DNA from: Sphyrna mokarran
Lineage: Eukaryota
Assembly (NCBI GenBank): GCA_024679065.1
Contig: JAGIQG010000002.1
Location: forward strand, 80,724,001-80,788,000
Reading direction: 5' to 3'
DNA: 64,000 bases
Shown: positions 10,852 through 63,658 of the stretch, piece by piece
How the letters are laid out: each line of letters begins with the position of its first letter
How positions within the stretch are numbered: position 1 is the first letter of the stretch
Translations under genes and position numbers: made by a program
Notes under the pieces: model-generated
What the model was told of the DNA's origin: nothing
Databases searched by the model: none
The model's input: only the letters and a program-made list of their open reading frames with translations

Positions 10852-10901
10852 TTATAATTCATGTTTCAACAGTATTTTGGCTGCCTTCATGTTTGAAGCC
10901 A
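10852..10901 (-). CDS. agr2: AGR terminal coding exon ([16 protein letters not shown])
   Basis: Pyrimidine tract ttttcccttcttctttag|, phase matches the previous exon, NMK and xxEL ending, TAA at 10854-10852. Confidence 0.93.
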
Positions 10902-13900
10902 CTAAAGAAGAAGGGAAAATGTTATTCAGATATGACACACATTAAATGCAACATTCTTGCCTATGGCAGAATTTATTGGCTTCTGTCTGTAATCACACAT
11001 TGGTTACAGTTTGCCATTTCAAATACAGAACATATCAGCCTGTATGCCAACATTGAGAGTTTGAAGGATGTTCTAGAGCAATAATCTGTTATTGTCTTTG
11101 ATAAGGTGAATGCAAAATAACAGGATAATTCTCCCATCAGGATGAGGTACTTTATTAAATCACAAGTAGGCTTACAACACAGCAATGAAGTTACTGTGAA
11201 AATTCCCTAGTCCTACACTCAGATACTGAGGAGAATTTAGCATGGCTGACTAACAGCACATAGAATCCCTACAGTGCAGATGGAGGCCATTTGGCTCATC
11301 AAGCATGCCCTGATCACAATCCCACTCAAATCCTATTCCTGCAATTTCTCATATCTACTCTGCTGTCAACCTAACCTGCTCATTTCTGGAGTGTGGGAGG
11401 AAACTGGAGCACAAGGAGGAAACCCACACAGACATGGGATGAACTTGCAGACTCCATGCAGAAAATGACCCAGCATCCCTATGATGTGTTGCAACAATAC
11501 TAACCATTGTGCCACCATGCCATCTTTAGGGTTTCTCTATTTTGAAGCCAAATCATGAAACCAGAATTTTACTGCACAGGAGACAGCCTATTAGATCTAT
11601 ACTGGTTTATCCTTTATTTTCACTGGACTTAGTACCTGTTCTAAAAGAGATTCTCCTTCCACCAGTGCATTTCATATTCTAATAAGCAGGTAATAAAATA
11701 AACTTTGTTTTGTTTCCTTCTTGGGTGCCCTTTGATAAATTCATACCTCCAATTCTTGATCAAGTGAAATATATTTTTCCTTTTACACTCAAAACCCTTC
11801 AATGTTTCATTATCAGAGCCCCTCTTACCTGCTCTGCTTTAATGAAAATAGCACCAATTTCTTTAATCTCAACAGCTGAAGTAATGCAACTACAGATGGA
11901 CCACAAGTAAAAATGAACAGTTGAATAACTTTTAGCAGTTATCACCAAGAAATTACAAATTCTGAAAAGTATCTGTTAAAAACCCAGACCTCCTAAAGTC
12001 AATTAAGTAATAATGCAATTATCTCAGGGAGCTCTACAAGAGAAGAAAACCTGTGATTCAAAAGCACTGAGCATTTGTCAAGTAACATATCGCTTAAATT
12101 TACCAATGAGGGATGTCTAAAAAGTTAATGTTCCTGATGTATACTCCTGGCTTGGCATTTTGCCTGTTGGAAGCATGCATCAGGAAATCACAAGTGTGTA
12201 CCCAGCAATTTCATGTTTTTTTGACATTTGGATATGATTCCACAGACAAAAAGCTGCCAATATCAAGTTATTCAACTGTGGATGTTAGACCAATTCTACA
12301 TGACCCTGAATCAGCACTTTGAATAGAAGTTACAGAAACTTATCACTGGTTGAACCAAAATGGGGCCACAGATTACGATCAACATTGTGACAGCCTGCAG
12401 TGCTTTATCAAAAGATGCTATTCTTGATTTTGTACAGATTCATCCAGGATTCCTGCTCCTGAGTTTCAATAGAACATTACAGGAGGTTGAAAACAGAGGG
12501 GTCAGCTTGAATGCAAGGTGGAGAATTAAAACAATCAGGACTCAGGGTCTGACTTGTAACCTGAAAAAAGTCTCACTAAGCAGTCACTCATTTTGCTTCA
12601 ATTTTATTTCCCTCTGCAGGTTCAGTTGTATCTTTTTCCTTGTTTTTGCTTTCAGGCATGTCATTCACTTGTCTACACATCTTTTGTTTCTTACTTGACC
12701 ATTCTTTGGCACTGCGTCACCAACTCTTGTCATTTAATCCCCCATATTCTAATCAACACAGATCTTCCTTTTGTTCATTTTCTACCTTCACCTTGCTGTT
12801 TCTTATACACATTGTATTTTGAATTTTTCTAGTCATCAACCTGAAATTTAATATGGTTTCTCTCCACAGAGGATGCCTAATTTAGGTATTTCCTGCATTT
12901 TCAGGTTTACAGCATGTATAGTATTTTCTTTTATATAAAAGACTGGTCAGAATTATGTCCTCCCTTGCATGTTATTGGAGTGGAATTATCTTTAGGCTCC
13001 TGCCTGCCCAATCCAGTTGTGATTTTATGCTGGAGCACTGGGCCATTTCTTTCCCAGACTTCAAATTATAGGACTAGTGGGCAAATGACAGTTCATGAGG
13101 GAGGGTGGAAAAAGACAAAGTTTCCTCTCGTGAAAAAAAAAGTCCCTTCTGACTGAGGGCTTAATGATCTCTGGGCCTCCCTCCCCACTTCAGTCTATCC
13201 CTTGACACCAATATTGCCCCCTGGTGATCTCACAGATCCCACTTTGGGACTTCTACTCTTTACCCATCCTACAAGTCCTGGGACTTCAAACAGCCCCAGG
13301 GAGTGCCTCTTCCAGGCACAGCACTGCAAAGACCGGAAGGACTGGTGAAGTCTTCATCAATCTGATTGGCTGGCAGCATTTCAAGGCAGGATTTCCTCTT
13401 GAGTGAGGTAGGGAGCCCCACCTTTTGCTGCTCAATGCTTATTTGAGTGTACTTTTGGCATTGGTGCTGTTTGAGTTGGCAGGCAAGTATTCAAGCCATT
13501 AAGAATGGTGACAAATATTTCTAGTAGTTTAAAATAAATAACATGGACTTACAGAGATCAATGTCACCAGCCTCATAAGTGTACAAACGATTGTCATACT
13601 TCCCTCTGATATCTGCTCTCACTGTTAAGGAAGGATCTGTATTCAAAGAAAGAAAACACTCAATACTTTAAAGTACACATTAAAGGCTAGGAATATTAAT
13701 ATAACTACAATAACTAAAATGTTATAATTCTTACCTACAAAGATTATCCTGGGAACATACTGACTGTCAGGCCATAAGTTTTTGTCAGTTGTCTCAAACT
13801 GTAATGAAAAATGATATGGTTGTAGTTATTGGCAATGCAAACAATACCAAGGCACATATTTAAAAGAATGCAATGTATAAACTTGTACATAGATAACACA

Positions 13901-16900
13901 AACCTAGTCATATTGACTGGGGTACATGTGAGATATAGCATGAAAGAGTCTTTCATTCTTGAAAGGGCCTAGCTGACTGAAACTCACACAGGGAAGCCTC
14001 ATAGTTGCACCCATGGTATAAGACTTAAATTCTCATGGAAATGGAAGTAATTTGGACCTTAGCCAAAATGGTACCAGAGGCCAGATATCTCACCACTGAA
14101 CGTGGCATCTCTATTTTTTGCTGGGGGTGGCAGCAAAGTGTAGCTTTGATTCAAAAGCAATTTTTGAAAAAACAACTCAGCTTTAGACATTTGAGTAAAA
14201 GCTCTAAACTTTTGGAATTCTTCTGGGATTGTTAGCAATTGAAATTTGAATAAAAAGTGGATATGCTCTGTGGCACTGTCAAAAAAATCTCCTGCCCTTT
14301 AAATTGAAGAAAAAGCCCAGCCCATTGTGACTTAGTATTTGCAATTTCAATACATGTTTGTTTATGCAAGCCTGAAAGTTATTACTATAGGATTTGTGGG
14401 GTTTAATGGCTTCCACATACTAGCATTATCACAGTGGGTGTCTGATGTTTATCTCAGTTCATCTCACCTTGGTTCCAGAGGTTGCCCCTGGTTGAATGCA
14501 ATGGAGGGGATAAGGGTAAAGGGTTGACATGGAAAATATTGGGGGGGTGGGGTGGAAAGAGAAATAAAGGTGTAATGAGTTAGTATGAATGGAGCATCTG
14601 GGGGTTCAGCGATAGGAGGCTCTGTTTTTTCCTTGCAACTGGAAACAAATCTCAGATAGACATTTAAAATTGTATACAGTTTACTCTTGCTCCATTAGCA
14701 TTGCAGGCTAGTATTGCGTTGAATCAGATTTTCTAATGCTCTGGCATTTTTACAAGAACAGTTACAGCTTTTCTACTCCAGTTTGACTGCTGGCCATACT
14801 GAAACTCAGGTACTTCATCTATGTTGCTAATGTGACTAGTTACATGTGCTTTTGCCACCTCATCATGAACCTGCTTTACTATAAAACACTGTTAGTATCT
14901 TGATAGCTTGATTTAGAAAATTTTGTCTCACTTCTCTGCTAATTTTGCTCATCCTTCACTCAACCATACTATGTATCACACACAAATCCAATAAGTATAT
15001 ACAAATACCAAACTAAACATTTGCACACCACTGCCAATAAAACCTTATCTTCTATTCTCAAATTCTTGTCACTTAATATTCCCATTATAAAATGCAAACA
15101 TTTAAAATTCTTTAATTTAAGTATTCATGGGTAAAAAGCATTCTTGCTAAATACTGCAAGTTAGACCAATGTGAAAAAAAGCTATTCCTACACAAACTGA
15201 AGGAAAATAAATCTCCAGGGTTAGAAAGGTAATAATTTCCAAGGGAGCAGAGGAGCACTGTGAATCATTAACAATCATGGGCAGTTAGTGGTCACTGGGG
15301 AATTTCTTGCAAATTGGAAACTGGCTAATATAATCCTTCTATTAGAAAGGGATAGCAAAATAGACTATTTAATATAATTGAAAATCAGTTCGAAGGCACT
15401 TGAGAATTATTGATAAAATAACAACCTGGAAAACAGCAATTAAACAAAACTAATCAGGGAAAGTCCTGCTTGACCGACAATCTTTTAATAACAGGCAGCC
15501 AAATGGAAGGTGTTAATCCTTATGGCGCTATGTAGATTTATGTAAGGCACTTAAACTCCATCCTTCAAGTTACAAAGCTCAGTGGATCAGGCAAACCCAA
15601 ATCCATTCCTTGCTCGCTCCAAAAAAAACAAAATTCAAATTGATACCATTCATGGTATCCACAAGAGAGACAAACAAGATCTATGCTAACAAGGTAAGGC
15701 ATTTTATCCCATCTTGGGCTTGATCTTAGCCAAAAGGCCTCTGTAAGGCATTTGTAAAAGTTCTCTTCATGAAAACCAACTAGTTAAGAACAAAGTTGTG
15801 AATATTTGTGGAAGAACTTGGGTGTGATAAATTGTTTGAGGAGGGGTGGGGGTGGAGATAGCATAAAAGGTGCTTATTGAGATTGTGAATGCAAGTCAAT
15901 TAGATAATCAGATGATACCAAACCAGTGCGATCAAAGGAGGTAGCCTTGATATTAAACAAAATATATAAGCGGGCTGGAATGAGAGAGATGAAGTTTAAT
16001 GCAGGTAAGTGTGAAATATTGCATGCTAGAAAAATAAGGAACATGAATGGCTCTAAAATTGTTCAGTATGAAAATTAGTGTCTTGGCAGATTGGTGCTCT
16101 GCAATGTGTTCAATGAATAGATCAAAAGACAAAAACAAAATGCAAATCAACTGATGCTATAGTCAACTATACCATATTCTGGTCAGACTGTTTGCCATTG
16201 AGAAAACTGTGCACACTATTGCTCTTCATGAATAAACACCACTGGATACTGCAAAAAGCCTCAAGATTGATCTCTAATGTTAAAGACATGCACCATGAGA
16301 GATCTGGTAACTGATTTTTTTACTTGAATATGTCAAAGGTCAAATTAGAGGTATATAAAATGGTAAACTGCATGGAAAATCTGGAGTATTATTTTGAAGT
16401 TAAACTACAAAATAGGATAAATTTATGCTAATCCAAAAAATAGCACAAATCCATTATTCTCCAGAGCACAAGTACTTTCCTATATCAATGCAGTAACAAA
16501 GTACTTTTGAATATTTTTTTCTCTTACCACAAGATTAAGCATAACAAAGTCCTCTTTTGCCATTTTCTGAATGTCCTTATTTTCAGCAAATGCTTTCTTC
16601 AGGGCTGTTAGAAGAAAATATAATGTGTAGGTGAAGAGATAGTGAATGCTACAAAATAAAGCAAAAACATTCTCAGCAGCTATTTTACTCTAAAGCACAA
16701 TTAACTATAACAATCAGACTTTAAACTGTTTGTTGAAGTGATTAGTTACCTTGACTGTATGGGCATTCATCCAGGTGGTGGATAACCATTAAAGGTCGAT
16801 TGCTGAAACATGAATACTATAATTAATTCACTGTTTAAATCTGATGAAATGAATATTTAAAGAGGTTAATAAATTCCCTTCCATAAGAGTGTTCAAATGC

Positions 16901-19900
16901 ACTTTACACAAGCAATTGTGACATTTGAGTATAATGTAACCAAAAATTATCTTAAGATATTTGAAATACTAGTAAGCACATGAACCATTTTTAGAGAATT
17001 ATACCAGGGTAGGGATGAACCAACAACTGAATTGTACCAGTATATGGTTACATCAATAATCTGGATTCAGAAACAAAAAAGTTTGCAAAGTATACCAAAA
17101 TGGAATTTGTAACTTAAATTACAACTGGATTGGACAAATAAAGGCCAATACAATAAAATATAAAGTATAGGGGCAGCATGGTGGCACAATGTTAGCACTG
17201 CTGCCTCGCAATGCCAGATATAATTCACAGCTTGGGCCTCTGTCTGTGTGGAGTTTGCACGCTCTCCGTGTCAGTGTGGGTCTCCTCTCACTTCAAGGAT
17301 GTGCAGGTTAGGTTGCTTGGCCATGCTAAATTTTCTTCTATCGTCAGAGGGAACTAGCTAAGGTAAATGCATGGGTTATTGCTGGGTAGGATTGTGGTTA
17401 GTGCAGACTTGATAGGATTCTATGATTCCATAAAGTGCTACAAATAGGAAGGGAAGAAATGAGTTAATGAAATCAATAAGGATGAATCTGAAAGAACAAG
17501 GAGTCTCAGCAGCCATAACATTAAACTCAAACTCGTAATTGTGACTGATAATGAGTAACTGTTCAACAAGTAGGGGAGAACTCTTGGAATCATTTAAGAA
17601 ACAATTCAGTTATCCAATGGGGTTACATTAAGATTCAGTAATTCATGGGCTGAATGGCTTTCCTCTGATGATTACCTACACGAATAGGCTTTGCCTTGTC
17701 CAATCGATCAAGACCTGCCAATATCAGCTGAGTAACCTTTTGCAGATCTGAACATCACTTCAAATTCTTGAGTTTGGAAAAGGCTATCCAAAATAATGTT
17801 TTGCTGCTCAGTGATTCTCTCCCTATTATTGAGGCCATTCTTCCTTGTTATTTGCCTTAAAAAGGTAATATCCTTAAAGGAGAAATAAATTTTTAATTGA
17901 CTTTTTGATATACAAGTGCAACATTGCCTCTAAGCTGTGTGGCCATACAACAAAGAATCGAACTAGCTGGGCACAAGCAATGTTCCTTTATAAGTGCATG
18001 CATGTCTGTTACAGAGACAAGATGTCTGCACCAGGAACAAAATACAAAACTAGAAAATCTTAGTTTGACAGCATGGAGCCAATTTTTGAGTCTAGATGAT
18101 CCTTTGGTCAGAGCTAATAGCTAAGAGAATCAGCGTAGATTTATACCATAAGGATACAGATGGGTGGGTGGGTGGAGAGCAGCAGGGACAAGGAGATCTG
18201 GAATAGACATATGGAAAGAAGGAGTATAAGTGAATGAGATGAAACAAAATGAAATAAAGTAAATGGAAATGGGATGAAGCTGGAGGAAAGAATTCATGCT
18301 GTGAAGTCATGCTCTTTGTGCCCTAAGAATTTAGATGAAACATGATTATAAGATGCATCAATATATACTGGAGTCCAACACTTGGTCAAGTGATATTATT
18401 TAGTGTTACATGCTGACAGAACCATGGGTATATTGCTATCCCCATATAGAACAGCTGCTGATCAGGCCTTACCTGTCTGTGCTCAAATAAGCTAATGATA
18501 AGAGTTGATCTCACTCAAATTACTAAGGCGGCCAAGACACATTATGAATGGTGCAGTGGGAATGCTACAGCATCAAAGGCAGAAGGTCAGTCACATTAAC
18601 CAGAAATGGACTGCAGACAGCCTGTATGGTGCTGCCCCTTTTGGTTGTGTAAAGTGGCAATGACTCAAGTCCTCATTCAGAGTTTGACTTTTGGAGTCCA
18701 CAGAAAGGAATAGCAGCAAGAAAGATTGACGTACAACAAGGACCCAGGAACTACATGGCCTCCATGCAACTATAAGGTGATCCTTTTCTTTTCTGAAGTC
18801 AGGGCCATAGTGAGCTGAGTACACCCTCCCTGAACAGACTCTTAATGGGTTTAGTGTGGCCAGGAGCATAGCTAAACACCAAGCTTCTGCACCATTAACT
18901 TAGGATGATCCTACTGCAACAAACTGCATTACTTTAAATAACAGAAAATGCGAGGGAATCTCAAGCAGATCTAGTAGCTTTTGGAGAAGGTATAGTTAAA
19001 ATTTTGAGTCTGTATAACTCTGCTCAGAGTTAGAGAGGGATGGATTTTATACTGAATAAGAGGGGGTGGAGCAAATTAGAAAATCAGTAACAATTGTAAG
19101 CTCAGAATCATTGAAAAAAGATTTTTTTTAAACAGCAAAGGAAGCATTAAGACTATACAAGCTGCTAATGGTGACAAAGATAGCAGAACAAAGATCAAGG
19201 TTCAGTGAAAGCAAAACATAAGAACAAGTGACAGAAGGCTGTTTGTAGGGGGTGTGGCAGAGATGTTGCATTGCAACATTTTTTTTAAAAATGGCTCAAG
19301 ATGGAGAGGAAAGCTCACAATCTGAAGCTGTTGAATGTAAATGTTGAGTCAAGAAGGCTATAAATGCTTAATCAGATGCTGCTTCTCCAGTTTGTGTTGG
19401 ACTTCACTGTCAGTATGGAAGGGAAACTGTTGATTAAGAAGCACTGTTTTTCATTGTGGTATCATCAGGACAGATGTGATGGAGGTGAAGAAACTGGCAG
19501 AATGAGGTAGAGTCCTTACAGGAAGCCAGGTACGAGAAGCTGTCAAAGTTTGTGGGCTTGTCATGAATATTGATGGTCAGTCTATCATCAGAAATGGAGA
19601 CAGATCAAGGCAAGGAAGTATTGAAGGTGGACCAAGTGAAGGAGAGAGGGGTAGAAATTGGAAGTAAACTTGATATATTTTTCCAGGTCAAGATAAGAGC
19701 ATGAAGCAACACTCAATCATTGGTGTAATGGAAAAAAAGTTGTCTGCCTGAAGAAATGAGCAGAGGTAAAAAGGTAATGAATTGCATTAGCTGGTTCAAT
19801 GACCTTGACTTCCCATGAAGACAGCTCAGAGGCCAAAGCATAATTTAAGCTAGATTTCTTTTTCCTGGTTTTAACAAACATTCACATAAAATATGAACAA

Positions 19901-21607
19901 GTTGATTGACTCAACCAAACAACAAATGTCAAAACAATGACCTAACTGGCAATTGAAACATTGTGGATTTTTTTTTAATATTGCAACTTTATGTAGGTCA
20001 GGTCTACTGATTTCTGGGAGTCTTTTCATTGTACAGACCTTTCCTTTGTCACAAGACAACTTACAAATCATTCCTTTATCTGTCAATACTGCCACAAGAA
20101 CATCCTGGAATGATATGTTAGTTACTGTCACTCCCTAAGGGGGGAGTGTCTAACATTCCAGACAGCAGTCCATTCTCAATTGATTATATTTCAAGAGAGA
20201 GCTTGGTAGATTGTGGGACATCTAGGGAAATGGGAAAATCATGGATGATCAGATTTGATTTTGCTAAATAGCAGAGCAAAGGACTTGCTTTAGCTTTATA
20301 TTTTATGGATTGTGAGCATCCTGTAGATAGGGTTTGAGAAAGTAAAATTACAGAATTAAAGAGAGCTTTTCAACTTTGATCTGGACTTTGCATAAACCAC
20401 ATACAATCCATTCTACCAATGATACTGTCATACATCATCATAGAATCTCTACAGTGCAGAATGAGACCAGTAGGCCTATTGAGTCTACACCATCTACAAT
20501 TCTACTTATTCCCACAACCACACATATTTAACCTGCTAATCTCTGATACTGGGGTCAATTTAGCACGGCCAATCACCTAACCTGCGCACCTTTGGCCTGT
20601 GGGAGGAAACTGGAGTATCAGGAGGAAACCAATGCAGACATGGAGAGAATATGCAAACTGAGGCCAGAATTGAACCTGGATTCCTGCGCTTGAGGCAGCA
20701 GTGCTAACCACTGTACCATCCCTAAATTCACAATTATTCTTTGTGACACACAAAAAGGATATTTGCATTTCACCGTACAGCTTTCTCTGACTTAAACAAG
20801 AGTGAACAGCTTTACACGTGTATTTCCTCCTTCGCTACCTCTTCATCATTCTATTTTTTTAAGCAGGGCGGAGATATTTCATTTCCTGTTTTAGCTATGA
20901 TCGTTTCAAGTGGGAGGGCCACTTTTTGAACATTCCCTTCTTCTTTGATATACATTTCGTGTAATTACTCTGTATGCATCGCCTGTTCCTATCCTGTTAT
21001 GAACCCACCCCATTAATAAGCACTGCAAGGTTTGAGTTTCCCTAAGCATGCACTCTGTGGATCATCTCGGGAATTCTTGCATTCAGCGTTTACCAGCTAA
21101 TCTGATATGTGCATGCGTGAGTCTCCTATAGAATATTAAACAAATGCAAGGAATGAGGTGTACTCGAAGGTGTACAGGTGCAGGAACAATACTGACAGAC
21201 ACTAGAGAGCGCGCTTTTGGTTAGAAATGCAGCATTACCTCTTTCTTGATTTGAAGAGTCCTTCCTCGTAAGTCTGGACCCAATTAATGTCGTCTCCCCA
21301 TCCTAAGATTAAAATTAAATGCAAACATTAACCTAGTAACCACATCGGGGGGAAGGAGGGAGAGGAGAACGCGATCCAAGTAAACTGCACACAGATAGCA
21401 AAGCATAACCAAACAAACAATGTACCCCGGGGTACTGTGAAAAGTTATAGCCACCTTACCTCTGGACAAACTGGGAGGGCATTGCTTCGTGTTTGTACTC
21501 TCGTTTTTAGCTGGAGGGCTCACAGTCTTGGATCCGGCGGCACCTCTTGCCAGACAACCTGAGACAGCCGCCAGCAGCACCAGTAGGAAAAACGGGAGGG
21601 CAGCCAT
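10852..21607 (-). CDS. agr2: Anterior gradient family protein (AGR2/AGR3/Ag1-like ER PDI-family protein), spliced CDS of 7 coding exons, 179 aa
   Basis: Exons 21607-21460, 21302-21239, 16802-16750, 16604-16528, 13798-13735, 13636-13553 and 10901-10852 (148+64+53+77+64+84+50=540 nt) are all GT-AG and in phase. They give [179 protein letters not shown]. The family is certain; the paralog name (agr2 vs agr3/ag1) is tentative. Confidence 0.93.
11148..11523 (-). mobile_element. HE1-type SINE (plus adjacent second tail fragment)
   Basis: catagaatccctacagtgcaga tail; gtgggaggaaactggagcac..ggaaacccacacagac core; tRNA-like head ending gccaccatgcc. Confidence 0.85.
12560..12912 (+). mobile_element. 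Penelope-like element terminal fragment
   Basis: Ends with gtcatcaacctgaaatttaat..tctctccacagaggatgcct..atttcctgcattttcag, the terminal module repeated at several other sites in the window. Confidence 0.5.
12945..13520. mobile_element. Non-autonomous DNA transposon (Harbinger-type termini)
   Basis: Starts ggtcagaatt; internal ctgattggctggcagc block resembles 55200-55450. Confidence 0.45.
13553..13636 (-). CDS. agr2: AGR coding exon 6 ([28 protein letters not shown])
   Basis: 84 nt, atacag| ... |gtaagt; [10 protein letters not shown] motif. Confidence 0.96.
13735..13798 (-). CDS. agr2: AGR coding exon 5 ([21 protein letters not shown])
   Basis: 64 nt, ttacag| ... |gtaaga; YVPRI motif. Confidence 0.96.
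15240..16440 (+). mobile_element. Old, decayed CR1 LINE RT region (interrupted at 15553-15741)
   Basis: NWKLANI.LL, GKSCLT, D.CKAF.KV and MKFNAGKCE motifs. Confidence 0.7.
15553..15741 (-). mobile_element. U2 snRNA-derived retroposed element with 12-bp TSD
   Basis: 15739-15719 is U2 nt 11-31 exactly; downstream are Sm-site-like TTTTTTTTGGAGC and stem-III-like sequence; flanked by TGTAAGGCACTT (15541-15552) and TGTAAGGCATTT (15742-15753). Confidence 0.8.
16528..16604 (-). CDS. agr2: AGR coding exon 4 ([26 protein letters not shown])
   Basis: 77 nt, taacag| ... |gtaaga. Confidence 0.96.
16750..16802 (-). CDS. agr2: AGR coding exon 3 ([17 protein letters not shown])
   Basis: 53 nt, tttcag| ... 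|gtaact; contains the CxxS pseudo-thioredoxin motif. Confidence 0.96.
17170..17430 (+). mobile_element. HE1-type SINE
   Basis: gggcagcatggtggcacaatgttagcactgctgcctc head, tgtgtggagtttgcac core, gattctatgatt tail. Confidence 0.9.
18935..19760 (-). mobile_element. Decayed Penelope-like retroelement (RT/GIY-YIG 3' portion)
   Basis: Penelope terminal module at 18935-19030; FFHYTND (YIDD-like) near 19710-19740 on -. Confidence 0.55.
20438..20722 (-). mobile_element. HE1-type SINE
   Basis: Complete tail, core and head in antisense. Confidence 0.9.
21239..21302 (-). CDS. agr2: AGR coding exon 2 ([21 protein letters not shown])
   Basis: 64 nt, cttag| ... |gtaatg; family signature GWGD-W-QTYEE. Confidence 0.96.
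21460..21607 (-). CDS. agr2: AGR coding exon 1 (signal peptide + N-terminal extension, ends ...SLSR G)
   Basis: ATG at 21607, hydrophobic signal peptide, donor AG|GTAAGG at 21459; probable acceptor ttctgtgccttgtgtccccag at 21637-21638. Confidence 0.93.
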
Positions 21608-21945: not shown

Positions 21946-22879
21946 ATTTGGGGACGCAGGAAGAATGGACCTCACTTAGATCATCTGTAAGTAATAATTC
22001 TAATTTTGGAACTTTTTGAACACAGAACGTTCAAGGTAAAGATTGCTGGAGGTAATTTTGGCAATTTTAAATTGAGATAGTGAATTATTTAAAAAAAATA
22101 TGACATCTTTTCAAGACAAATCAGTACCTGTTGATTTCTCTGAAAGCTGACTGGTCTGTTTGCTATTGGCTGAAAGTTTTACAGACAGTATGCTAATATG
22201 TTTTAATTACATTCCAATCCACTATTGTGCTGATTCACAACTGGAGATTTGGTTTTAAATGAGTAGTGGCAACACCCCGATACTGCTTCAGCAATATTTA
22301 TGGATTTCTTTGACAGAAAATCAAGTTTATGTGGTTTTTGAATAAAGGATTTTTCAAAATGTTCTATTTTTCACATAATGGTTTCTAAAGTCAACAACCA
22401 GGGTACATCATGCATTTCTTCAGCCTGGTTTCAGTTTATTCTTTTGCCCTTTTCTTTATGATTTTAGTATACACAATGGTATTTTACAGTTACTGTATGA
22501 GTTGAATTTGGACCCTTTGAAAATTGGGGTCTTCCAGTCTTGGTTCTTCTTGTAATGCCACCAAGTAGTATTAACAACCTGCAAATCCTTCCAACACGTG
22601 CTAATGGCAGGCAATAAGAGTGGGAGAGGTTCCTGATGTGCCATGTGATTGAAAGAAAGTTGAAGCTTCTCCGACAATGTCCAGAACGCTAAAGTACAAA
22701 TTTTTAAGAAGTCTAACAACTTGTACTCCCTTAGTGATCTGTAAAACACACATAAGGTTGATTTCCCAATGTTGATCTTGAGTTGGTACTACTCCATATA
22801 AATTTAAAATTTCATTTGTCTTTATTTTTAATTTGTTCTCCCAATTTTAAAGATATTTAATCTATACATCTAAATTCTT

Positions 22880-23660
22880 TTGTTCATGCACTTCACTGGG
22901 AACTACACCATTTGAAGCATATTTCAGTTCTCTATTTATATTTCTTAAGTAAATGATCTCACATTTTTCTCTACTGAATTGCAAATGTCATTCATATTGC
23001 CTAGATATAGTGTATAGCAGAGTCCCACAATGTTTCTGCTTGTTTTCTACACTTTGTAGTTTTGAATTATTAGCCAATTTTTCCTAAATCCAGATCATGT
23101 ATATACAGTAAAATCCCTGGTCCCGATACTGATTTTTTAAAAACTTTATTCCAATCCAATCAAGTCAAATTAAATCCAATTCAGAGTCCCAACAAGTAGG
23201 GACATTCCCGATCCAAGCTGACAAAACAGGGCTCTCACCACTTGTCTTGGGCTTGATCTGTATGATCCAAGCTGATTGGAGTAGGTATAGCTCCTCCTCC
23301 AAGGCTGGATCTTATCTGTATCTTAGCCAAAAGGCCCAGATGCTGCTTTAAAAAATTGCTTCAAATGAAGCTGAAATGCAACCTAATGACTTCAACCAAG
23401 TGCAGATGTCGATACTACACTTGATCTTAGCCAGAAGGCCAAGTTGTAGAACTCCAGCACCAAGCCTAAAAACCATATATTTGTTGTAACCTTTTGCTAT
23501 CTGAATTCATTCACCTCTTTGTCCATATTGCCACACTTTAATCTGCACACCACTTTTTAAGGTACATTCTGAAAGTTTACGAAAAGACAGGGACTGAACT
23601 CCCATCTTTACTTTCAATTATTTTCTCAAAATATTTCATCAGGTTTGTCAAACATGACAT
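22880..23660 (-). mobile_element. Old decayed CR1 fragment hosting the U2-derived insertion
   Basis: ggtcccgatactgat...tgtagaactcc is the split antisense VPQGSVLGP motif. Confidence 0.5.
23144..23445 (-). mobile_element. Composite U2 snRNA-derived element: two U2 heads and two tandem hairpin cassettes
   Basis: 23440-23411 matches U2 nt 11-40 (29/30) and 23336-23320 matches U2 nt 11-27; cassettes at 23264-23311 and 23210-23258; U2 stem-IIb-like GTCCC..GGGAC follows. Confidence 0.8.
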
Positions 23661-24334
23661 ACACTTCATGAGTTTTACAATTGGATTGACTGGCAGCTTT
23701 TGAGAGTTGGACTTTCTGTCCCTGAGGGGTGACAGTCCCATTTTGATCTAGTTAATACCACACACAGCATATTAATGCTGTGGGGAAACCAGATTACATG
23801 TCGGTGACATCTGGACCGACTTTTAGCCCACTAAGTGTGAAGTAATCCCCATAAAATCCAACCCTACATACTTAAAATTTCAGAAAACTATCTCATAATA
23901 GGCTATTTTGGAATTAGAGGTGAGTTGTTAAAATAGAGTAATAACTGACTGCATCCTCCAAGGTGGAAATTTATTCGGCCTATTTGAAGACTTGTTATTG
24001 ATGGCCAGTTACAGAGTGGTTATTTTGCATTACTGTGAGAAATTATTTTACATTACTTTCATTCATGACCTGGAAGGAGTCTGTATGTTTGCAGAGGAAT
24101 GGAAGATCTGTGTGAATTTTAGGACTGTAACTGCAAATAAACTACTCTAAGTTGATCTAGGTGTGATGGAGAACTATGACCTGTTTAGTAAATTGCATTT
24201 AACTTAGCTAAAAGTACTGTTATGCACATGGTTAGGACTAATGTTATAAGTACTTAGACTCTACAGGGTAAAGTACATCAAGTCTGCTGAGAAGGAACAT
24301 GATCCTGGAATTATTCAAGATAATTATCCTAACT

Positions 24335-26085: not shown

Positions 26086-28749
26086 GTAAATAATAAGAGG
26101 CTAATAAAAAGAAAATGTTGGAAGATCAGAGCAGGTTTGGCAGCATCTGGAGAGCAAGAAATGAGTGAGATTCTCTGGTTTCATCTGTGATGGGACTTGT
26201 TGCGAGCAAAGACAGAAAATTTGGCATTCTAACCAAAGTTCTGTTAACTTTCAGCAGTATTGGAAATCCCAGCTGCAAATGAGGATGGAAGATTGCTGCC
26301 AAAGTTTGCTACTTTCTTCCATCATTTTCTGTTCTATTTCAGATTTTCAGCACCCGCAGTATTTTGCTTTTCTGTAAGTACCCCTGTGTTCTCTTTAACT
26401 AAGTTTGACTGCGTAAAGAAAGAGGAATTTTATAGATTTTGTTTCACCTTGAATTTTTAAATCTTTCAATTCCTCTCTTCCAGAAGGCTGGCAACTGTTG
26501 ATCTTTTCTTGCCCTTCACGCTTCATAACTCTGCATAGAACCCAAGCTAAATTGTCATGTCACATCATTAATCGTTGATTCAACAATTTTTTTTAACCAG
26601 CAAAGCACTGGAAAGTGGAGGAATTGGCAGAAAAGTTTGGAAAAAATAATTAAGAAGACAGGTCAAAAATAATGAAACTGAAAGAATGGATTATACCATA
26701 AAGAAGAAATTGCTTCTGAAAATCTATAAATGGATGCAGTGACAAATGATGGGTTCACAGGGATGCTCTGCTATTGATCACAATAGCTTTCTAGGGCTGG
26801 GGGAGGTTCTTTTATTTGCCTATGAATGTAAGATATCTTTATCTTTGTGAACATGTTAGAAAAGGTTGAATGGATGGGAGGGAGGATATTGGGATGTACG
26901 AGTTCGCATTGGAAGAATGTGGAATTTGCAGCTTCTCAAAGCTGCTTAAGTTAAGGATTGTGTGTTTGAAAATGTGTAAAAAAAATCCCCATGTTTTTTC
27001 CCCTTTGATTGGATAACAGTCCTCGACAATGAAAATCAGGTCAGCAATGAAAATCTCCTGAAGTAAAGTTCCTAAATCCTTCCCCCTCCTGACAATGTTT
27101 GGGATGGGTAAAGATCTCTCCTTGCCAATCCATTGAGTAAACCTTCACAAAGACTAGAATTCAAGGTATTTAAGCCCTGCCCTCATTTCTAGCCATTTTA
27201 ATGGACTGTCAGTTGAATTGGAGAGGAATATGTTGGAAGAGGCATAGACATTTAGGGCTGTTGAATACTCAATTTATTGTTTCTGCCTAGTGAAAGTTGG
27301 TGGAGTTTGGCAATTGAAAGCCAAAGGAGCCGAACAACTAATGTTCAGCTTAACAGCCTTCTTAATTCAGGAGACAATCAGAGTGGTTTCTACATTTTGG
27401 CTAAGAACAATTAGTTTCTCATTAGTAAGTGTGGTGTTAGAGATATGCAGAGGCAATGCTGCACAATTCCAATTGAATTCAAATTCATACAATTATGATT
27501 TAAAAATACATTTGCAAATTGCCTTTTATACTTACCCCTCCTTTACAGAGAAAACTTTGGTTTAGAAATATTTTCAGACCCACTAGCAATATTTTCTTTT
27601 GGGTTAAAATATAATCTGTTTGTCACTTTAAAAATTAAAGATGATGAAACAAATATTCTTTAGTTGGTTTAAAATCATGTTACATTGTCATTACTGTGCT
27701 AATGTTTTTGCTAGTGTTAACTGGGGTGTACAGATATTAGAAATGTAAATAATTGCTTCTCTTTCTGAGGCTTCTTATCAACAAATCAAAGAAACATCCT
27801 TCTTGCCAATCCTACATTACAGCTGATCCATTCTCAGATGCTGCAGTGACCTTCTTGAGATTAGGTGAATTTAAATTGCCAAATGCTGCTGTTCTCCACT
27901 GCATTCATTGTGAAGCATTGTTCATTGGTTTTTCCCAATTTGAATACTGTTAGGGTATTGGAACTGAATAAACTGAAATTATAAAGTTGTTCAACTGAAA
28001 GATTCATGGACCTGATAGTCTCACTTCTGTGCTCAAGAATATAATCCATTTCCCTCTGTGTCATTCTCCAAGTTAATACAAACACGCATAATTAACCAAG
28101 GCAGATTTTAGTTTCAGTAAGTTCTGAAGCGCATTAAGATGATGAGTTCAGCTACCATGATTTTTTCAATTGTCGAGTTAAACTGATTTAATTTTCTTAA
28201 AAGATGAGTGGTCTGACTTCAATTTATTGATATTAAATAAACCTCAAGATATACCTCTTTATCGACCAACAAGAAACTACTGTGGATGCTGGTAAGTCTT
28301 AATATCAGTATAGTAGATTGCCTTTTAAACTACCACACCCTTATATTTCCAGAAATAATTCTTTTTATGAGGCCAGGGTTGACAGGTTTGACTGCTTGCT
28401 CAGTTGGCTGGGAACTTCAGATGGCTCTGAAAACTTGGCAACTTTTCAAAATATCATACACTCGTCATATTTCATCCGTTTGTCTGAATGATGACTAGTC
28501 TTTTGGCTATTGGCTTAAAGTCTTATTAGGTAGTTTACATGTTATAATTTATTCAAAATGACCATTGTGCTGATTCATAACTTCAGCCTTTGATTTAAAT
28601 GAATGCCAGCACATACAATATTAATAAACTTTTCTACTGCATTACCCAATATCTGTTCAAACCCATTAGCATATTTTAACAGCAAAAAGAGATTTCAATT
28701 TTTATTAACCTTTTGACTATCTATTTGGCTGATCTGGTTGATGAAAGTC

Positions 28750-30981: not shown

Positions 30982-32413
30982 ATCAGTTCAGCTGAGCTTG
31001 AATTATTGATACAAATATCAATGGGACTGTGAAATTTGCTTTGCATGACAAGAAAATCTAAAGGCACGAAGAAAGCTGGGGAAAAAGCAAGTGAAGATAG
31101 CTTCCTCTGAATCTTCCTAGCTTAAAATTTTTTCAGTGCTGCTTACATATATGTAATATGTTGAAGAAGGTGGGCAAATCTACATCCTCCCTTCTGGAAT
31201 TGAGGGCCAGCAAGTTAAGCACTTCGCTGTCACTTTATTCTTGAGTTAGTTTCAGTACTTATTCAGTTCTCTTTCCATCGTAGAATACAAAAACAATTTC
31301 TTTGTTGAATATTAAAATATATTTTCCATTTGAAAATAATTAGTCTTGGTTGCCTTACTTTGTAAATGATATTAAGGATTTGGAAAAGTGGTGGAGGAGA
31401 TTCAAACGTCAGGGTTGATTTTATACATATCTTAACCATGAATAAAAAAGGGACATGGATGTAAAATCTTGTGAGAACTGGAAAACAAGGTTCTTGGTGC
31501 GAGATCTTTTAAATAATTTTCCCTATCCTATGCCAGTGACGTAAAGAAGGTGGGAAATTAATTTAAAAACATCTAAATTTTAACATAATGAATGGGCTTC
31601 CCTACCATATTTCCTCCCACATTTAGAATGGGGGATGTTGCCCCAGTGCTTGTGAAAGGAGGGGGGGTGTGGTTCCCAGTAAATGTGGGAGGGAGGATTT
31701 TTAAAATGAAAATTGGGGCATCCTTTTTCGATGCTCCAGAGCAATAGTGTGATCCACGACCTCAGATTTTCTCTACACAGAGTGTCCCAATATCCAGTCC
31801 TGCAGCTGGAGAGCTGCACTCCAATTTTCTCACCTCAGCCAGCACTCTGTGCGCAAAATGCAAAATACTGACCATCCTGATATACTCCAAGAATTAAGTC
31901 TGCAAACTTCAAAAAATAGTAAATCAGAAGTGATTCAGTGATTTATAAGGGGGTTGAGAAATTAGATTGTGTTCTTAATATTCAAGGAACAAAATACTAT
32001 AAATTCTATATAAAAACATAAAATGCTGGTAATACTCAACAGCTTTGGAAGTATCTGTGGAAAGAGAAACAAAATTAGCATTTCAGGTTGATGAACTTTC
32101 GTCATTTTAACTGAAAAGGTTATGGAAGGCTGGGGGTTGCACTTACAAATTATAGAAGGACAGAACAAGATTGAATGGGTGATTCTTTTTCCAGAGAATA
32201 ATGAACATGTGAAGCAGTTTATCAGTGAGTCTGGTGAATGCTGATTCACATCAAGTCAGATCAGGTTCTGACTCTGGCTAGCGGGGAAGTCATCTTATGC
32301 AAGAGGTATAGCTCCTCTATTTAAATCAGAGTGAACATAATCTTTTGGCCTACTCTCAATTACAGGGCTTGGAGAAAAGTTTTCCAAAATTTAGTTCCCC
32401 TAATCTGCCTAAC

Positions 32414-32763
32414 GGCAGCACAGTGGCATAGTGGTTAGCGCTATTACATCACAGTGCCAGAGACCCTGGTTCAATTTCAGTCTTAAGTGACTATATGTAT
32501 GGAGTTTACACATTCTCCCAGTATCTGTGTGGTTTTCCTCTGGGTGCTCCAGTTTCCTTCCACATTCCAAAGATGTGTGGATTAGGTTGATTGGCCATAC
32601 TACATTGTCCTTTAGTGTCCCAAGATATGCAAGCTAGGGGATTAATGGGGTAAATATGTGGGATTACGGTCATAGGATCAGGGCAAAATGCTCTGTTGGA
32701 GAGTTGATGCAGACTTGATAGGACAAATGGCCTCTTTCTGTACTATAATGATTCTATGATTCT
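32414..32763 (+). mobile_element. Full-length HE1-type SINE
   Basis: tRNA-like A/B boxes (gtggcatagtggttag, ggttcaattt), core, atgattctatgattct tail. Confidence 0.92.
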
Positions 32764-32905
32764 AATTGCATTAGGGCTTTTAGCATGTTTTAATACTTTG
32801 CCCATGAGTTTATATGGATCAGGTTGGATAGAAAGATTTTGTATAAAGTATCCAAACCATATAGAACAGGCTAGATGGACAATTGGATTCACTATTAATA
32901 AATTT

Positions 32906-51104: not shown

Positions 51105-51402
51105 AATGTTTATTTATTAGTCAGAAGTAACCTTACATTCACCCTGCAATGAAGTCACTGTGAAAATCCCTTAGTCGTCTATTTGGCGCCTATTTGGGTA
51201 CACTGAGGGGCAATTTAGCATGGCCAATGCAACTAATGTGCACATCTTTGGACTATGGGAAAAAAACCAAAGTACCCAGAGGAAACCCATGCAGACAAAG
51301 GGGGTCGTGCAAACTCCACAGACAGTGACTCAAAGCTGGGAATCAAATCCGTGTCCTGGCGCTATGAGGCAACAGTGCTAACCACTGTGCCACCATTCTG
51401 CT
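51105..51402 (-). mobile_element. HE1-type SINE
   Basis: Head gtgctaaccactgtgccacc, core, alternative tail as at 11148. Confidence 0.88.
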
Positions 51403-53665: not shown

Positions 53666-53996
53666 TTCATAAAGAACAAAGAACAAAGAACAAAACAGCA
53701 AGGGAAACAGGCCCTTCGGCCCAATGAACCCGCACCGCCATGCCAATGTTCCCACCTCTACCCGTGATCCCTGTCTATGTTTATAAATCTATTGATTAAA
53801 AACCAAATTTGAGACAATTTAGGGAGAATTTGTTTTGCCGATTAGTCTAAGAGCACACCTTTGGGATGTGGGAGGAAACCGGAGCACCTGGAGAAAACCC
53901 AAGCAAGCATGGGGAGAATGCGCAAACTCCCACAGACACAGGCCCAAATCCAAGTATCTGTACAGCAAGCAATAGCCACTGAGCTGTTGTGTTGCC
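53666..53996 (-). mobile_element. SINE with HE1-like core and CR1-type (agaacaa)n tail
   Basis: agaacaaagaacaaagaacaa, ggcccttcggcc, gggaggaaaccggagcacctggagaaaaccc; the same subfamily lies at 57895-58266 (+). Confidence 0.8.
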
Positions 53997-54219
53997 CATC
54001 AAATGGTCCAGGTCAAGCGTACACTAATGACGTGAAGCACTAGGATACTCTCGAAAAAAAAAATCCAAGAGCAGCACTCTCACGACCCATTGGGTGTATG
54101 CCCCTTGTTAGACAACAAGGTGGACCAAAGCACCTGTAGAATAACAACAAGTACTCCAATATCATCATCTAATTACACACTTCCTAGGGACTCCCAAGGC
54201 TCATGATCCCTATTTTAAA

Positions 54220-57435: not shown

Positions 57436-57750
57436 ATAGAGCTGAATCCACACAGCACGGGAGGCCACTCAGCCCATTGAGTCTGCACTGCTAACAATCC
57501 CACCCAGGCCTTATTCCTATAATCCCACACACTTACCTCGCTAATCCCCCTGACAGTAGAGGCAATTTAGCACTGCCTATTCACCTCACATCTTTGCAGA
57601 GTGAGAGCAAACCAGAGTACCAGGAGGAAATCCGCACAGACATGGGGAGAATGTGCAAACGCAAAAAAAGACTGGGGCTGGAATTGAACCTGGGTACATG
57701 GTGCTGTAAGACAGGAATGCTACCCACCTACTGTGCCGCCATGCCACCCT
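57436..57750 (-). mobile_element. HE1-type SINE
   Basis: Tail, core and head in antisense. Confidence 0.85.
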
Positions 57751-57894
57751 CCTGTTTTATTACGTTGAAATGGTAATATAGCTAGTTGTTAAAGATAACA
57801 GACTAGTTATTTATGCTGCTTAATCTAAGGGGTAACACAGAACTCTCATTAGTGTATGCTTAAACTGGACCAACTGATGTGCAACACGACATCT

Positions 57895-58266
57895 CAGTGA
57901 CTATCACTGTTTGCTGTACAGGTACATGGACCTGAGTCAGATCTCCAACTTGGATTGGTGTCCATGGGAGTTGGCACATTCTTCCCGTGCTTGCGTGGGT
58001 TTTCTCTGGGTACTCCAGTTTCCTCCCACACCCCAGAAACATGCTTTTAGGCTGATTGGTGTTAACAAATTGTCCCTAAATTAGACCTCCCTTAATCTGG
58101 CACACATATAATTCTCTAAATCTGCACACCTTTATTGTGGAGTCCAAGAGACGTAGGCAAAAGTCGTAGGTAGAAGGATTGGAATGAGGCACTCACTGAA
58201 TGTTAAAATGGCGGCGCAGGCTTGTTAGGCCGAAGGGCCTGTTTCCTGTGCTGTGCTGTTCTTTGT
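57895..58266 (+). mobile_element. SINE with HE1-like core and CR1-type tail
   Basis: gggtactccagtttcctcccaca core; ggccgaagggcctgtttcctgtgctgtgctgttctttgtt tail. Confidence 0.8.
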
Positions 58267-62352: not shown

Positions 62353-63658
62353 CAAATATCTGGTGCATTCAGCCTCATGCCCATTTGTGGAAAGAGGATG
62401 AATAGATTATTTAAATATATTTAAAACACCACTTGCATGTAATTGACAGGCCTTGGATGCAATCATCCAGACTCACTTGCTTTTTTGGCCTTGCCTCGAG
62501 AGAATCTCTCCGGTGAGGAAAACACCTGGTCCCCATGAATGAGTAGAACCAGATGCCATTTGACAACCCCCCCTCCCGCCCCGAGAGACTGAGAGCAAGG
62601 GGAGATGTCCTTTGGGAAGTGCCAGAGTGGTAATGCCAAGCAGGTATCTTGGCACTTTCCATTGGGCAGCTTGATACGGTCAGAGACTGGGACCTAAAGG
62701 GGACAGAAACTGAAGGGGTGGCTGAGTGGGGGAATGACTTGCAAGGTACCTGAAGGGGCATATTGATTGGGTAGGGAGAGGGGCCTGCTGTCACTCTGCG
62801 CATGATCAAAGAGGAGAGCAGGCCCCGCTGCCGTTGGCTGGGACAGGGGATGCTATGTTGAGGCCACCTGCAGCAGCGGACAGCTGACAGATCTCTCGGA
62901 GCATCAGATTTGTAAGCTGTCTGCTGATTGCCATTGCACATGTGCAGCCATATAGATCTACACATGCGCAATTACTTCCTCTGCTGCAGCAGCAGCCTTC
63001 CTGGAGAGTTAAACCCTGTTCCACCTTCTTAAGGCTAGAAATGGTCTAACCCATTTTTTGCTACTCTGAGTACATAACATATGCAATTTGGGCTCGCTGA
63101 GAAAATAAACCTGAAATTCTCCTGTTTCCATGTTAACCAGGCAGTTAGAATCTTTCTTACAAAATGGCCCCCTATGACTTCTACCCAGGACATTCTGACA
63201 GCAGTGATAATTCCCATTGAGAAACAGGCATGACTGATGTGTCCAGTGACTGTGAGGACACACCATTAGTGTGCTGGGAAGGTTGCACACAGCACAGGAC
63301 CCAAATATTTTGTGCATTCATCTTCCTGCCCATTTCTGGCAAGAGGGTGAATAGGCTATTTAAATATATTTAAAACATCATTTGCATGTAATTGACGAGC
63401 CTGGGATGCAATCATGTGGGCTCACTTGCCTTTGTGGCCTCATCTCAAGATGATCTCTTCAGCGAGGAAAACACTTGGTCCCCATGAATGGGGAGAAGTT
63501 GTGATAACCTCACTGGTTGAACTGGAGGCTCCACCGAGAGATCGAGGGCAAGGGGGGGGTGTTTCCCTTGGGCAGTGCCAGACTGGCAGTACCAAGCAGG
63601 CATCTTGGCACTTCTCACTGGGCAGCTTGACACTGCCAAGAGTTGGACCTAAAAGGGG
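62353..63658 (+). repeat. Two diverged direct copies (~62353-62701 and ~63302-63658) of a non-autonomous DNA-transposon segment
   Basis: Shared tatttaaatatatttaaaaca..ttgcatgtaattgac..gaggaaaacac.tggtccccatgaatg..gggcagcttga..ggacctaaa. Confidence 0.85.

What the first reader, a model, noticed from the sequence alone, without database searches (positions are those of the whole stretch)
23144..23445. Second U2-derived element with a tandem array of constant-end, variable-hairpin cassettes and two U2 heads
Seen on the minus strand: a U2 head (nt 11-40, branch-point sequence intact), a ~65-nt linker, then a second U2 head (nt 11-27). Cassette A follows: GATCCAGCC-TTGGAGGAGG agctata CCTACTCCAA-TCAGCTTGGATC (48 nt). 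Cassette B: GATCAAGCC-CAAGACAAG tggtgagagcc CTGTTTTG-TCAGCTTGGATC (49 nt). Then come GTCCC..GGGAC (U2 stem-IIb-like) and a simple TTGGA-rich end. With the 48-nt cassette at 15678-15725 there are three units of near-identical length and ends, with different inner sequences that all still pair. Inference: structure is under selection, giving a repeat-spacer-like modular RNA built on a U2 scaffold.
Basis: partly seen in the sequence, partly recalled or inferred. Interest (0 to 1): 0.82.

Follow-up and report, generated by a model that had tools for sequence, protein, structure and literature searches.

The report
Shark retroposon rebuilt from U2 snRNA
This is most likely a small jumping element in a shark genome, made from a remodelled copy of the U2 splicing RNA in which the intron-reading part is replaced by hairpins; it resembles elements described from crocodilians and does not look like a CRISPR-style repeat-spacer array.

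Summary
The described sequence is real: two U2 heads, cassettes A and B, a stem-IIb-like hairpin, and cassette C at 15678-15725. The window is shark DNA. The finding (E2, about 310 bp) and the element holding C (E1, 189 bp, 12-bp target-site duplication) are diverged members of one family, each apparently inserted in decayed CR1 LINE coding DNA. Both follow U2's order of parts, but the branch-point region and stem IIa are replaced by a 48-nt hairpin; in the first head, which keeps the branch-point sequence, it is folded back on an antisense copy. The hairpin register is kept, but B and C are homologous, so there are two hairpin types, not three spacers. Best reading: a non-autonomous, LINE-mobilised U2-derived retroposon, closest to crocodilian SINEU-3, that grew by adding heads and duplicating a module. 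Unexplained: the loop of C matches E1's own target site (11 of 11 nt), while E2's loops do not match theirs; and a 13-of-14 match to U6's ACAGAGA region follows head 2. No other eukaryotic DNA was searchable, so copy number and cassette diversity are untested.

The parts
23133..23443 (-). E2, the whole composite element (3' boundary lies between 23139 and 23133); sense to the CR1 remnant it interrupts; no clear TSD
   Evidence: whole-element fold z=-3.76, 0 of 100 shuffles
23411..23443 (-). U2 head 1 (nt 11-40 plus CTT that extends stem I); ends 2 nt past the Keno/Utopia insertion point in U2
   Evidence: site
23379..23405 (-). Antisense arm folding back on head 1 and covering most of the branch-point recognition sequence: 16 Watson-Crick, 7 G-U, 4 mismatches, no A-C
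   Evidence: (z=-3.6; inner 35 nt z=-4.9)
23346..23357 (-). Sm-site-like U-run (AAU6AAAG) behind a 5-bp hairpin; imperfect
   Evidence: Rfam alignment
23320..23340 (-). U2 head 2 (stem I, nt 7-27)
23309..23322 (-). Linker in front of cassette A; 13 of 14 identical to the U6 ACAGAGA-box region, or AGAT slippage plus the ATACAGAT linker shared with the A/B junction
23264..23311 (-). Cassette A, hairpin type 1
23259..23263 (-). ATACA spacer between A and B
23210..23258 (-). Cassette B, hairpin type 2, homologous to C
23172..23203 (-). U2 stem IIb homolog (hairpin 23203-23186) and the following U2 nt 95-101-like motif
   Evidence: (1 match, 0 of 100 shuffles; pattern designed after seeing the match), U2 text
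23133..23171 (-). TTGGA-rich end in the place of the Sm site, AATAAA at 23150-23145, T5 then A6 (part of the A-run may be CR1 flank)
23444..23670 (-). 5' flank: decayed CR1 reverse-transcriptase coding DNA ending near the SGVPQ motif
   Evidence: 14 bits HMM; DNA score 80 vs shuffle maximum 70; frame
22790..23135 (-). 3' flank: the CR1 remnant resumes near GSVLGP
   Evidence: tblastn E=3.6e-5; 17.5 bits
15553..15741 (-). E1, second family member, 189 bp, antisense to a CR1 remnant, in an intron of an AGR3-like gene; no poly(A)
15719..15739 (-). E1 U2 head (nt 11-31, 21 of 21), running directly into cassette C
15678..15725 (-). Cassette C
15694..15704 (-). 11-mer in the loop and 3' stem strand of C identical to E1's TSD
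15581..15628 (-). U2 Sm-site and stem III remnants of E1
   Evidence: 1 of 100 shuffles; 7 of 100 shuffles; no Rfam hit for this part alone
15742..15753 (.). TSD copy at E1's 5' end; CR1 frame reads CKAF-VKV from here
15541..15552 (.). TSD copy at E1's 3' end (11 of 12 identical); CR1 frame reads YVDLCKAL up to here

Best explanation
E1 and E2 are retroposed copies of a shark family of short non-coding RNAs derived from U2 snRNA (works like SINEU). The source RNA keeps U2 stem I, stem IIb and, in E1, the Sm site and stem III, but U2 nt ~32-67 (branch-point recognition sequence and stem IIa) are replaced by a hairpin that opens at U2's own GAUCAAG and is closed by a complementary strand (shown by alignment). 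A LINE reverse transcriptase copies the RNA into new sites in trans (inferred from the TSD and from the interrupted CR1 frames); the partner is unknown, a Keno-related Tx1 element being the guess by analogy. E2 is a composite that grew by tandem duplication of the [ATACA + cassette] module and 5' addition of further U2-headed units (inferred). The hairpins were under selection in the source genes, probably to lock away the U6-pairing and branch-point segments so that the RNA keeps U2's transcription or transport signals without disturbing splicing, or as a binding site for the LINE protein (inferred, untested). The C-loop/TSD identity most likely reflects priming or joining by RNA-target complementarity at an A-rich loop, as known for tailless retrocopies, which may also have overwritten part of C.
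For: Colinearity with U2. E1 and E2 share 76 of 114 aligned columns; the tails alone align at p about 0.002-0.003. Heads and TSDs show little decay (29/30, 17/17, 21/21 vs U2; TSD 11/12; A and B 3' ends 12/12), so the E1/E2 divergence predates insertion and implies several source lineages. 12-bp TSD: 6 of 9108 comparable segments look so by chance. Both sites appear to lie in CR1 coding remnants, which cover 5-23% of the window depending on padding, reversed control 0. SINEU paper (PMC4494074): recurrent 5' addition of U2 heads, partial duplications, about 10-16-bp TSDs or none, preference for another transposon at two unrelated sites in opposite orientations, and SINEU-3 as U2 with an internal deletion of about 50 bp after nt 32 and a non-U2 3' end. 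Tailless retrocopies are primed at A-rich loops with 2-18 nt complementarity to the target (PMC5322556).
Against: Only two copies; copy number is unknown. E1 has no poly(A) and E2 only A6, whereas all SINEU groups have poly(A). E2 has no clear TSD. The CR1 identity of E1's left flank is weak (3-4 bits; DNA alignments of both E1 flanks and of E2's 3' flank did not beat shuffles) and leans on the reading frame at the junction. No Tx1 partner was identified. Plain tailless priming would delete everything 3' of the loop, yet E1 continues for 140 nt to a third TSD copy. Cassette folding is not strand-biased (A -20.1 vs -21.9, B -16.4 vs -13.5, C -7.7 vs -9.4 kcal/mol).
Confidence: 0.62

Rival explanations
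1. Retrocopies of functional variant snRNA genes: sharks keep a family of U2 paralogs with remodelled 5' domains that do a cellular job (regulatory Sm-class RNAs); E1 and E2 are passive pseudogenes, E2 a template-switch chimera of several variants.
For: Stem I, IIb, Sm site and stem III are kept with compensatory-looking changes; E1 has U2's length; 7 G-U and no A-C in the first fold-back; native U2 also has a conformation that masks the branch-point sequence (bioRxiv 2021.08.01.454689).
Against: Stem IV is not recognisable; E2 lacks an Sm site after B; Rfam scores are far below threshold (33.5 and 12.7 bits); no exact octamer within 400 nt upstream and only one near-match to a recalled 3' box motif, which overlaps the CR1 junction. 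Source genes were not seen.
Confidence: 0.17
2. RNA-guided retroposon: the variable loop is a guide that selects the insertion site (or pairs with CR1 mRNA to hijack its enzyme), and tandem cassettes carry several guides.
For: C's loop equals E1's TSD 11 of 11; any C 11-mer occurs in 20 of 127,422 other 30-nt windows; the segment sits in register in the hairpin and shares the invariant CC; E1 is full length, not truncated at the loop.
Against: A and B share at most 6 contiguous nt with E2's flanks and the first fold-back 7; no loop pairs with the window's CR1 copies better than shuffles, C included (23 of 40); B and C are homologs; C's 5' arm would pair as well with B's 3' strand, so C may be a mosaic with target DNA; one case only, noticed after the fact.
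Confidence: 0.09
3. Neutral debris: independent U2 retrocopies with snap-back inverted duplications and slippage around the palindrome GATC; the hairpins are by-products and E1 is two insertions sandwiching a TSD.
For: The first linker is plainly an inverted copy of head 1; cassette A can be read as two direct copies of a small palindrome (sequence); C is not significantly structured; tandem insertions around a TSD are described for SINEU-3.
Against: Two loci 7.5 kb apart share a non-U2 cassette and tail over about 110 nt; A keeps the length and register of B/C with unrelated sequence; wobble-only transitions.
Confidence: 0.08
4. A single-chain mimic of the U2/U6 catalytic core: U2 head, U6 ACAGAGA-like box, helix I formed in cis (GAUC-x-AGC with GCU-NN-GAUC) and an ISL-like hairpin, perhaps catalytic.
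For: 13 of 14 match to U6 directly behind head 2, 0.04 expected per window, continuing loosely as AGC and TGG against the U6 text; AGC/GC pairs invariant.
Against: 6 of the 13 matching bases are U2's own GAT and the cassette's GAT; Rfam finds no U6; no conserved bulge in the upper stem (mismatch at a different pair in A, B, C); E1 has no such linker.
Confidence: 0.04

Closest known systems
SINEU-1 and SINEU-3 of crocodilians (PMC4494074; main text read, figures and supplements not seen)
   Same: U2-derived heads that do not start at nt 1; repeated heads and partial duplications; under 500 bp; U2 broken at about nt 31-32 with loss of the branch-point region, middle U2 part kept, non-U2 3' end; insertion into another transposon in both orientations; TSD present or absent.
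   Different: Reported only from crocodilians; poly(A) tail in all groups; target Mariner-N4, not CR1; the text describes a deletion, not a replacement hairpin, fold-back or covarying module. Sequence homology could not be tested.
Keno (Tx1 clade) and Utopia, U2-targeting LINEs (PMC4640811, PMC6136364; passages)
   Same: Head 1 ends 2 nt past their insertion point (downstream U2 starts at nt 39), as a co-transcribed U2 5' end would.
   Different: No ORF; not inside a U2 gene; the other two heads end at nt 27 and 31; the downstream U2 nt 39 onward is absent.
Tailless retropseudogenes and snRNA/LINE chimeras (PMC5322556, passages and one part; PMC13174262, passages)
   Same: U2 source, TSD, complementarity between an A-rich loop and the target site, antisense head-to-head position next to LINE sequence.
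   Different: Described for L1 in mammals; they end at the priming site and carry unmodified RNA sequence, whereas E1 continues and has a remodelled body.
CRISPR-like or guide arrays (recalled, no call)
   Same: Constant ends around variable inner parts of equal length.
   Different: Two adjacent units, two types, inner parts fold on themselves, no associated protein gene seen.

Membership tests
SINEU | Head derived from U1 or U2 snRNA | tested here: met
SINEU | Short (<500 bp), non-coding | tested here: met
   189 and about 310 bp; no ORF of 110 aa or more over either element
SINEU | 3' poly(A) tail | tested here: not met
   E1 none; E2 only A6, partly assignable to the CR1 flank
SINEU | TSD or target truncation typical of LINE-mediated insertion | tested here: inconclusive
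   E1 12-bp TSD; E2 none clear
SINEU | Multicopy family with shared internal structure from master copies | tested here: inconclusive
   2 copies in 64 kb sharing 76 of 114 columns; genome not available
SINEU | Recurrent 5' addition of snRNA heads, partial duplication | tested here: inconclusive
   E2's structure fits; one composite only
SINEU | Target preference shared with a Tx1 partner | not testable with these tools
   2 of 2 copies appear to lie in CR1 remnants; no partner sequence available
SINEU | Sequence homology to SINEU-1/2/3 bodies | not testable with these tools
   Repbase not available; supplements not held
Functional U2 snRNA gene | Rfam U2 score of 46 bits or more; free branch-point sequence, stems IIa and IV | tested here: not met
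   33.5 and 12.7 bits; branch-point region deleted or folded back
Keno/Utopia | RT-encoding ORF inserted between U2 nt 38 and 39 with U2 continuing downstream | tested here: not met
Tailless retropseudogene | Copy ends at the loop that is complementary to the target | tested here: not met
   complementarity present, but E1 continues 140 nt to a further TSD copy
Repeat-spacer guide array | Many unrelated spacers matching foreign or target sequence | tested here: not met
   two types; no fourth unit; 1 of 3 loops matches its own site

The most novel reading that the evidence does not exclude
A spliceosomal-RNA-derived retroposon family in sharks in which the branch-point recognition arm of U2 has been turned into an exchangeable guide hairpin: the loop base-pairs with the target DNA (or CR1 mRNA) and sets the insertion site, and multi-cassette copies carry several guides. 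That would be RNA-programmed target choice by a eukaryotic non-LTR system, built on a snRNA.
Probability: 0.09. Interest if true: 0.92.

Novelty: new variant of a known kind. Interest (0 to 1): 0.5.

Why it matters
SINEU was reported only from crocodilians, and how such elements are transcribed is stated as an open question in that paper. A shark family that loses the same functional part of U2 but replaces it with a conserved, duplicable hairpin would be a second origin (or a very old shared one) and would make testable why the branch-point region must go. I found no description in nine literature searches (one search searched five family-specific motifs, 0 papers), but Repbase, Dfam and subscription journals were not searchable, so it may exist there as a named consensus. 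If the loop-to-target match holds genome-wide, it would be a natural RNA-guided retrotransposition system.

Tried and rejected
Further cassettes in the window: a covariance model found only the 3 training copies; next were A's own reverse strand (E=0.19) and E>=1.2. Relatives elsewhere: the one GTDB scan gave 2 bacterial hits without the cassette 3' end, taken as chance; plasmids and phages gave no match; viral and metagenome collections stayed unchecked; no eukaryotic genome collection is available. Other Rfam families on sub-regions: nothing credible, no U6. Exact 14-mer of A's loop at 32304-32317: 3.7% of all 27-mers in the window have such a match, region not structured (z=+0.41); dropped. 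B loop as guide to the CR1 QGS codons: 6-7 of 11 at two CR1 copies; dropped. Loops as antisense to CR1 RNA: not better than shuffles. DNA-level alignment of flanks to the window's best CR1 copy: 1 of 4 flanks beat all shuffles, so protein-level evidence was used. 151/152-bp periodicity of the TSD-like 12-mer: read as TSD plus chance. H/ACA RNA (ACA 14 nt after A's upper stem): no Rfam support, the would-be pocket strands pair with each other, one case; not pursued. snRNA promoter motifs (recalled consensus): no exact octamer within 400 nt. SINEU supplements could not be read; they and Fig. 1B could show whether head boundaries or bodies match.

Full report
Host and setting. The window is vertebrate DNA of 33-48% GC rich in LINE and SINE remnants. 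A signal-peptide exon at 21607-21458 matches anterior gradient protein 3-like of Mustelus asterias (86%) and of other sharks and rays, and tblastn maps seven coding exons on the minus strand from 21607 to 10855. The host is therefore a shark, probably a ground shark (inference). The finding (E2) lies about 1.5 kb upstream of the start codon, the element with cassette C (E1) in the intron between the exons at 16605-16528 and 13798-13736, both on the gene's strand.

Observation. Rfam gives U2 at 23450-23260 with 33.5 bits, E=0.0053, under the gathering score; head 2 aligns to model positions 7-26. A U2 17-mer occurs three times in the window, 0.16 expected. Cassettes A and B fold better than shuffles (z -3.45, -2.56), C does not (z -0.57). 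A covariance model of the three finds no fourth copy.

What the cassette is. In E1 the U2 head runs without a break into cassette C: the cassette's first seven bases are U2 nt 24-30. Its 3' end is a complementary strand. On the one-gap alignment the three share an outer stem, a conserved internal loop and a 10-pair upper stem; 44 of 48 cells pair, 4 of 10 upper pairs change on both sides, and slid registers pair only 29-46%. The structure was drawn from these same sequences and there are only three, so this is suggestive (25 of 500 shuffles reach 4 such pairs; 5 of 500 reach the covariation score). The inner parts of B and C are homologous (p 0.003-0.004), A is unrelated to both. So the data show two hairpin types of the same size and register, not three independent spacers.

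The family is a remodelled U2. Cassette B plus tail aligns with cassette C plus its tail at 76 of 114 columns; the tails alone give p 0.002-0.003. Against the U2 sequence printed in bioRxiv 2021.08.01.454689 (passages), E2's tail carries stem IIb and the motif before the Sm site, and E1 carries the Sm site and stem III skeleton (Rfam aligns E1 to the full model but at E=2.8, and finds nothing for the 3' part alone). These skeleton patterns were designed after seeing the matches, so their chance rates (0, 1 and 7 of 100 shuffles) are optimistic. The order is head, cassette in place of nt ~32-67, IIb, Sm site, stem III, non-U2 end. The first unit of E2 keeps the branch-point sequence, but its linker is an antisense copy of the head: 27 positions with 16 Watson-Crick pairs, 7 G-U, 4 mismatches and no A-C, z=-3.6; an alternative fold with U2-like stem I is within 1 kcal/mol and keeps the inner hairpin. 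In every unit, then, the U2 segment from GAUC onward is paired in cis or removed.

They are insertions. A window ORF is CR1-type ORF2. With such proteins, E2's flanks read as one reverse-transcriptase region broken near SGVPQ/GSVLGP (3' flank E=3.6e-5, 5' flank E=0.15 and 14 bits), E2 in sense, with no clear TSD. E1 is bounded by a 12-bp direct repeat (11 of 12), seen in 6 of 9108 comparable segments, and the frames read YVDLCKAL on the left and CKAFVKV on the right, as for a duplication inside the DFSKAFDKV motif; E1 is antisense. The left flank's CR1 signal is weak (3-4 bits) and DNA alignment supported only 1 of 4 flanks. CR1 coding remnants cover 5-23% of the window, so two of two is suggestive of a preference, no more. 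The heads, TSDs and A/B ends have barely decayed while E1 and E2 differ by a third, so the divergence arose among source RNAs.

Comparison. The SINEU paper (PMC4494074, parts 1-4 of 5 read; figures and supplements not seen) describes U1/U2-headed retroposons with repeated head addition, partial duplication, TSDs or none, preference for two unrelated sites of another transposon in opposite orientations, and SINEU-3, a U2 with about 50 bp deleted after nt 32 and a non-U2 end. It found none outside crocodilians; a 2017 review repeats that (PMC5381603, passages), and passages of papers on elephant shark and hagfish SINEs mention no SINEU. The shark elements work like SINEU but fail the poly(A) feature and could not be tested for homology, so I do not file them as members. 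Head 1 ends 2 nt past the Keno/Utopia site (PMC4640811, PMC6136364, passages), which fits a Keno-like origin or chance.

What stays unexplained. First, the 11-mer in C's loop equals E1's TSD; any C 11-mer occurs in 20 of 127,422 other 30-nt windows. Complementarity of 2-18 nt between an A-rich loop and the target is known for tailless retrocopies (PMC5322556), but those end at the loop. Two in-register events at one site, a template jump that overwrote the loop, or real guide function could each give this. Against a general guide role, E2's loops share at most 6-7 nt with its flanks and no loop pairs with CR1 better than shuffles. Second, 23322-23309 matches U6's ACAGAGA region 13 of 14 (primer from PMC10743546; 0.04 expected), but six of these bases are explained by U2's and the cassette's GAT, and Rfam sees no U6.

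Limits. No eukaryotic genome could be searched; GTDB, plasmid and phage searches gave nothing relevant, and viral and metagenome collections were unchecked. All family-level claims rest on two loci.

Verdict. Real, structured and not ordinary U2 pseudogene debris; most likely a SINEU-like retroposon family new for sharks, with a duplicable hairpin module (0.62). The repeat-spacer reading is not supported beyond one striking loop-target match (0.09). Interest 0.5.

Noticed in passing
window 10855-21607 (-): Seven coding exons of an anterior gradient protein 3-like (AGR2/AGR3) gene; E1 lies in one intron, E2 about 1.5 kb upstream.
   Followed up: partly
window 32304-32317: Exact 14-nt match to the loop of cassette A, overlapping an AG-GT donor-like site on the plus strand; background rate 3.7%, so not counted.
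   Followed up: yes
window 32415-32770 (+), with relatives near 11150-11514, 20430-20718, 51113-51401, 53816-54030, 57460-58082: tRNA-headed SINE family with a CR1-like tail (HE1/V-SINE label is recalled, from no call); the tRNA-Leu call at 20655-20727 overlaps one copy and is probably a SINE head.
   Followed up: no
window 28134-28199 (+) and 28415-28481 (-): Weak C/D-box snoRNA-like Rfam hits (SNORD57 E=0.71, SNORD19B E=2.3), below gathering scores.
   Followed up: no
window 15390-15401: A fourth, weaker copy (10 of 12) of the TSD 12-mer, giving spacings of 151, 152 and 49 nt; read as chance.
   Followed up: partly
window 23259-23263: ACA lies 14 nt after the upper stem of cassette A, the spacing recalled for H/ACA guides; no other support.
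   Followed up: no
window 62353-62702 and 63302-63657: 350-bp direct repeat at 76% identity.
   Followed up: no
protein hits P0053, P0086: CR1 ORF2 proteins 63-66% identical to the shark ORF are labelled Carnobacterium and Klebsiella on short contigs; probably vertebrate DNA contamination of bacterial assemblies.
   Followed up: no
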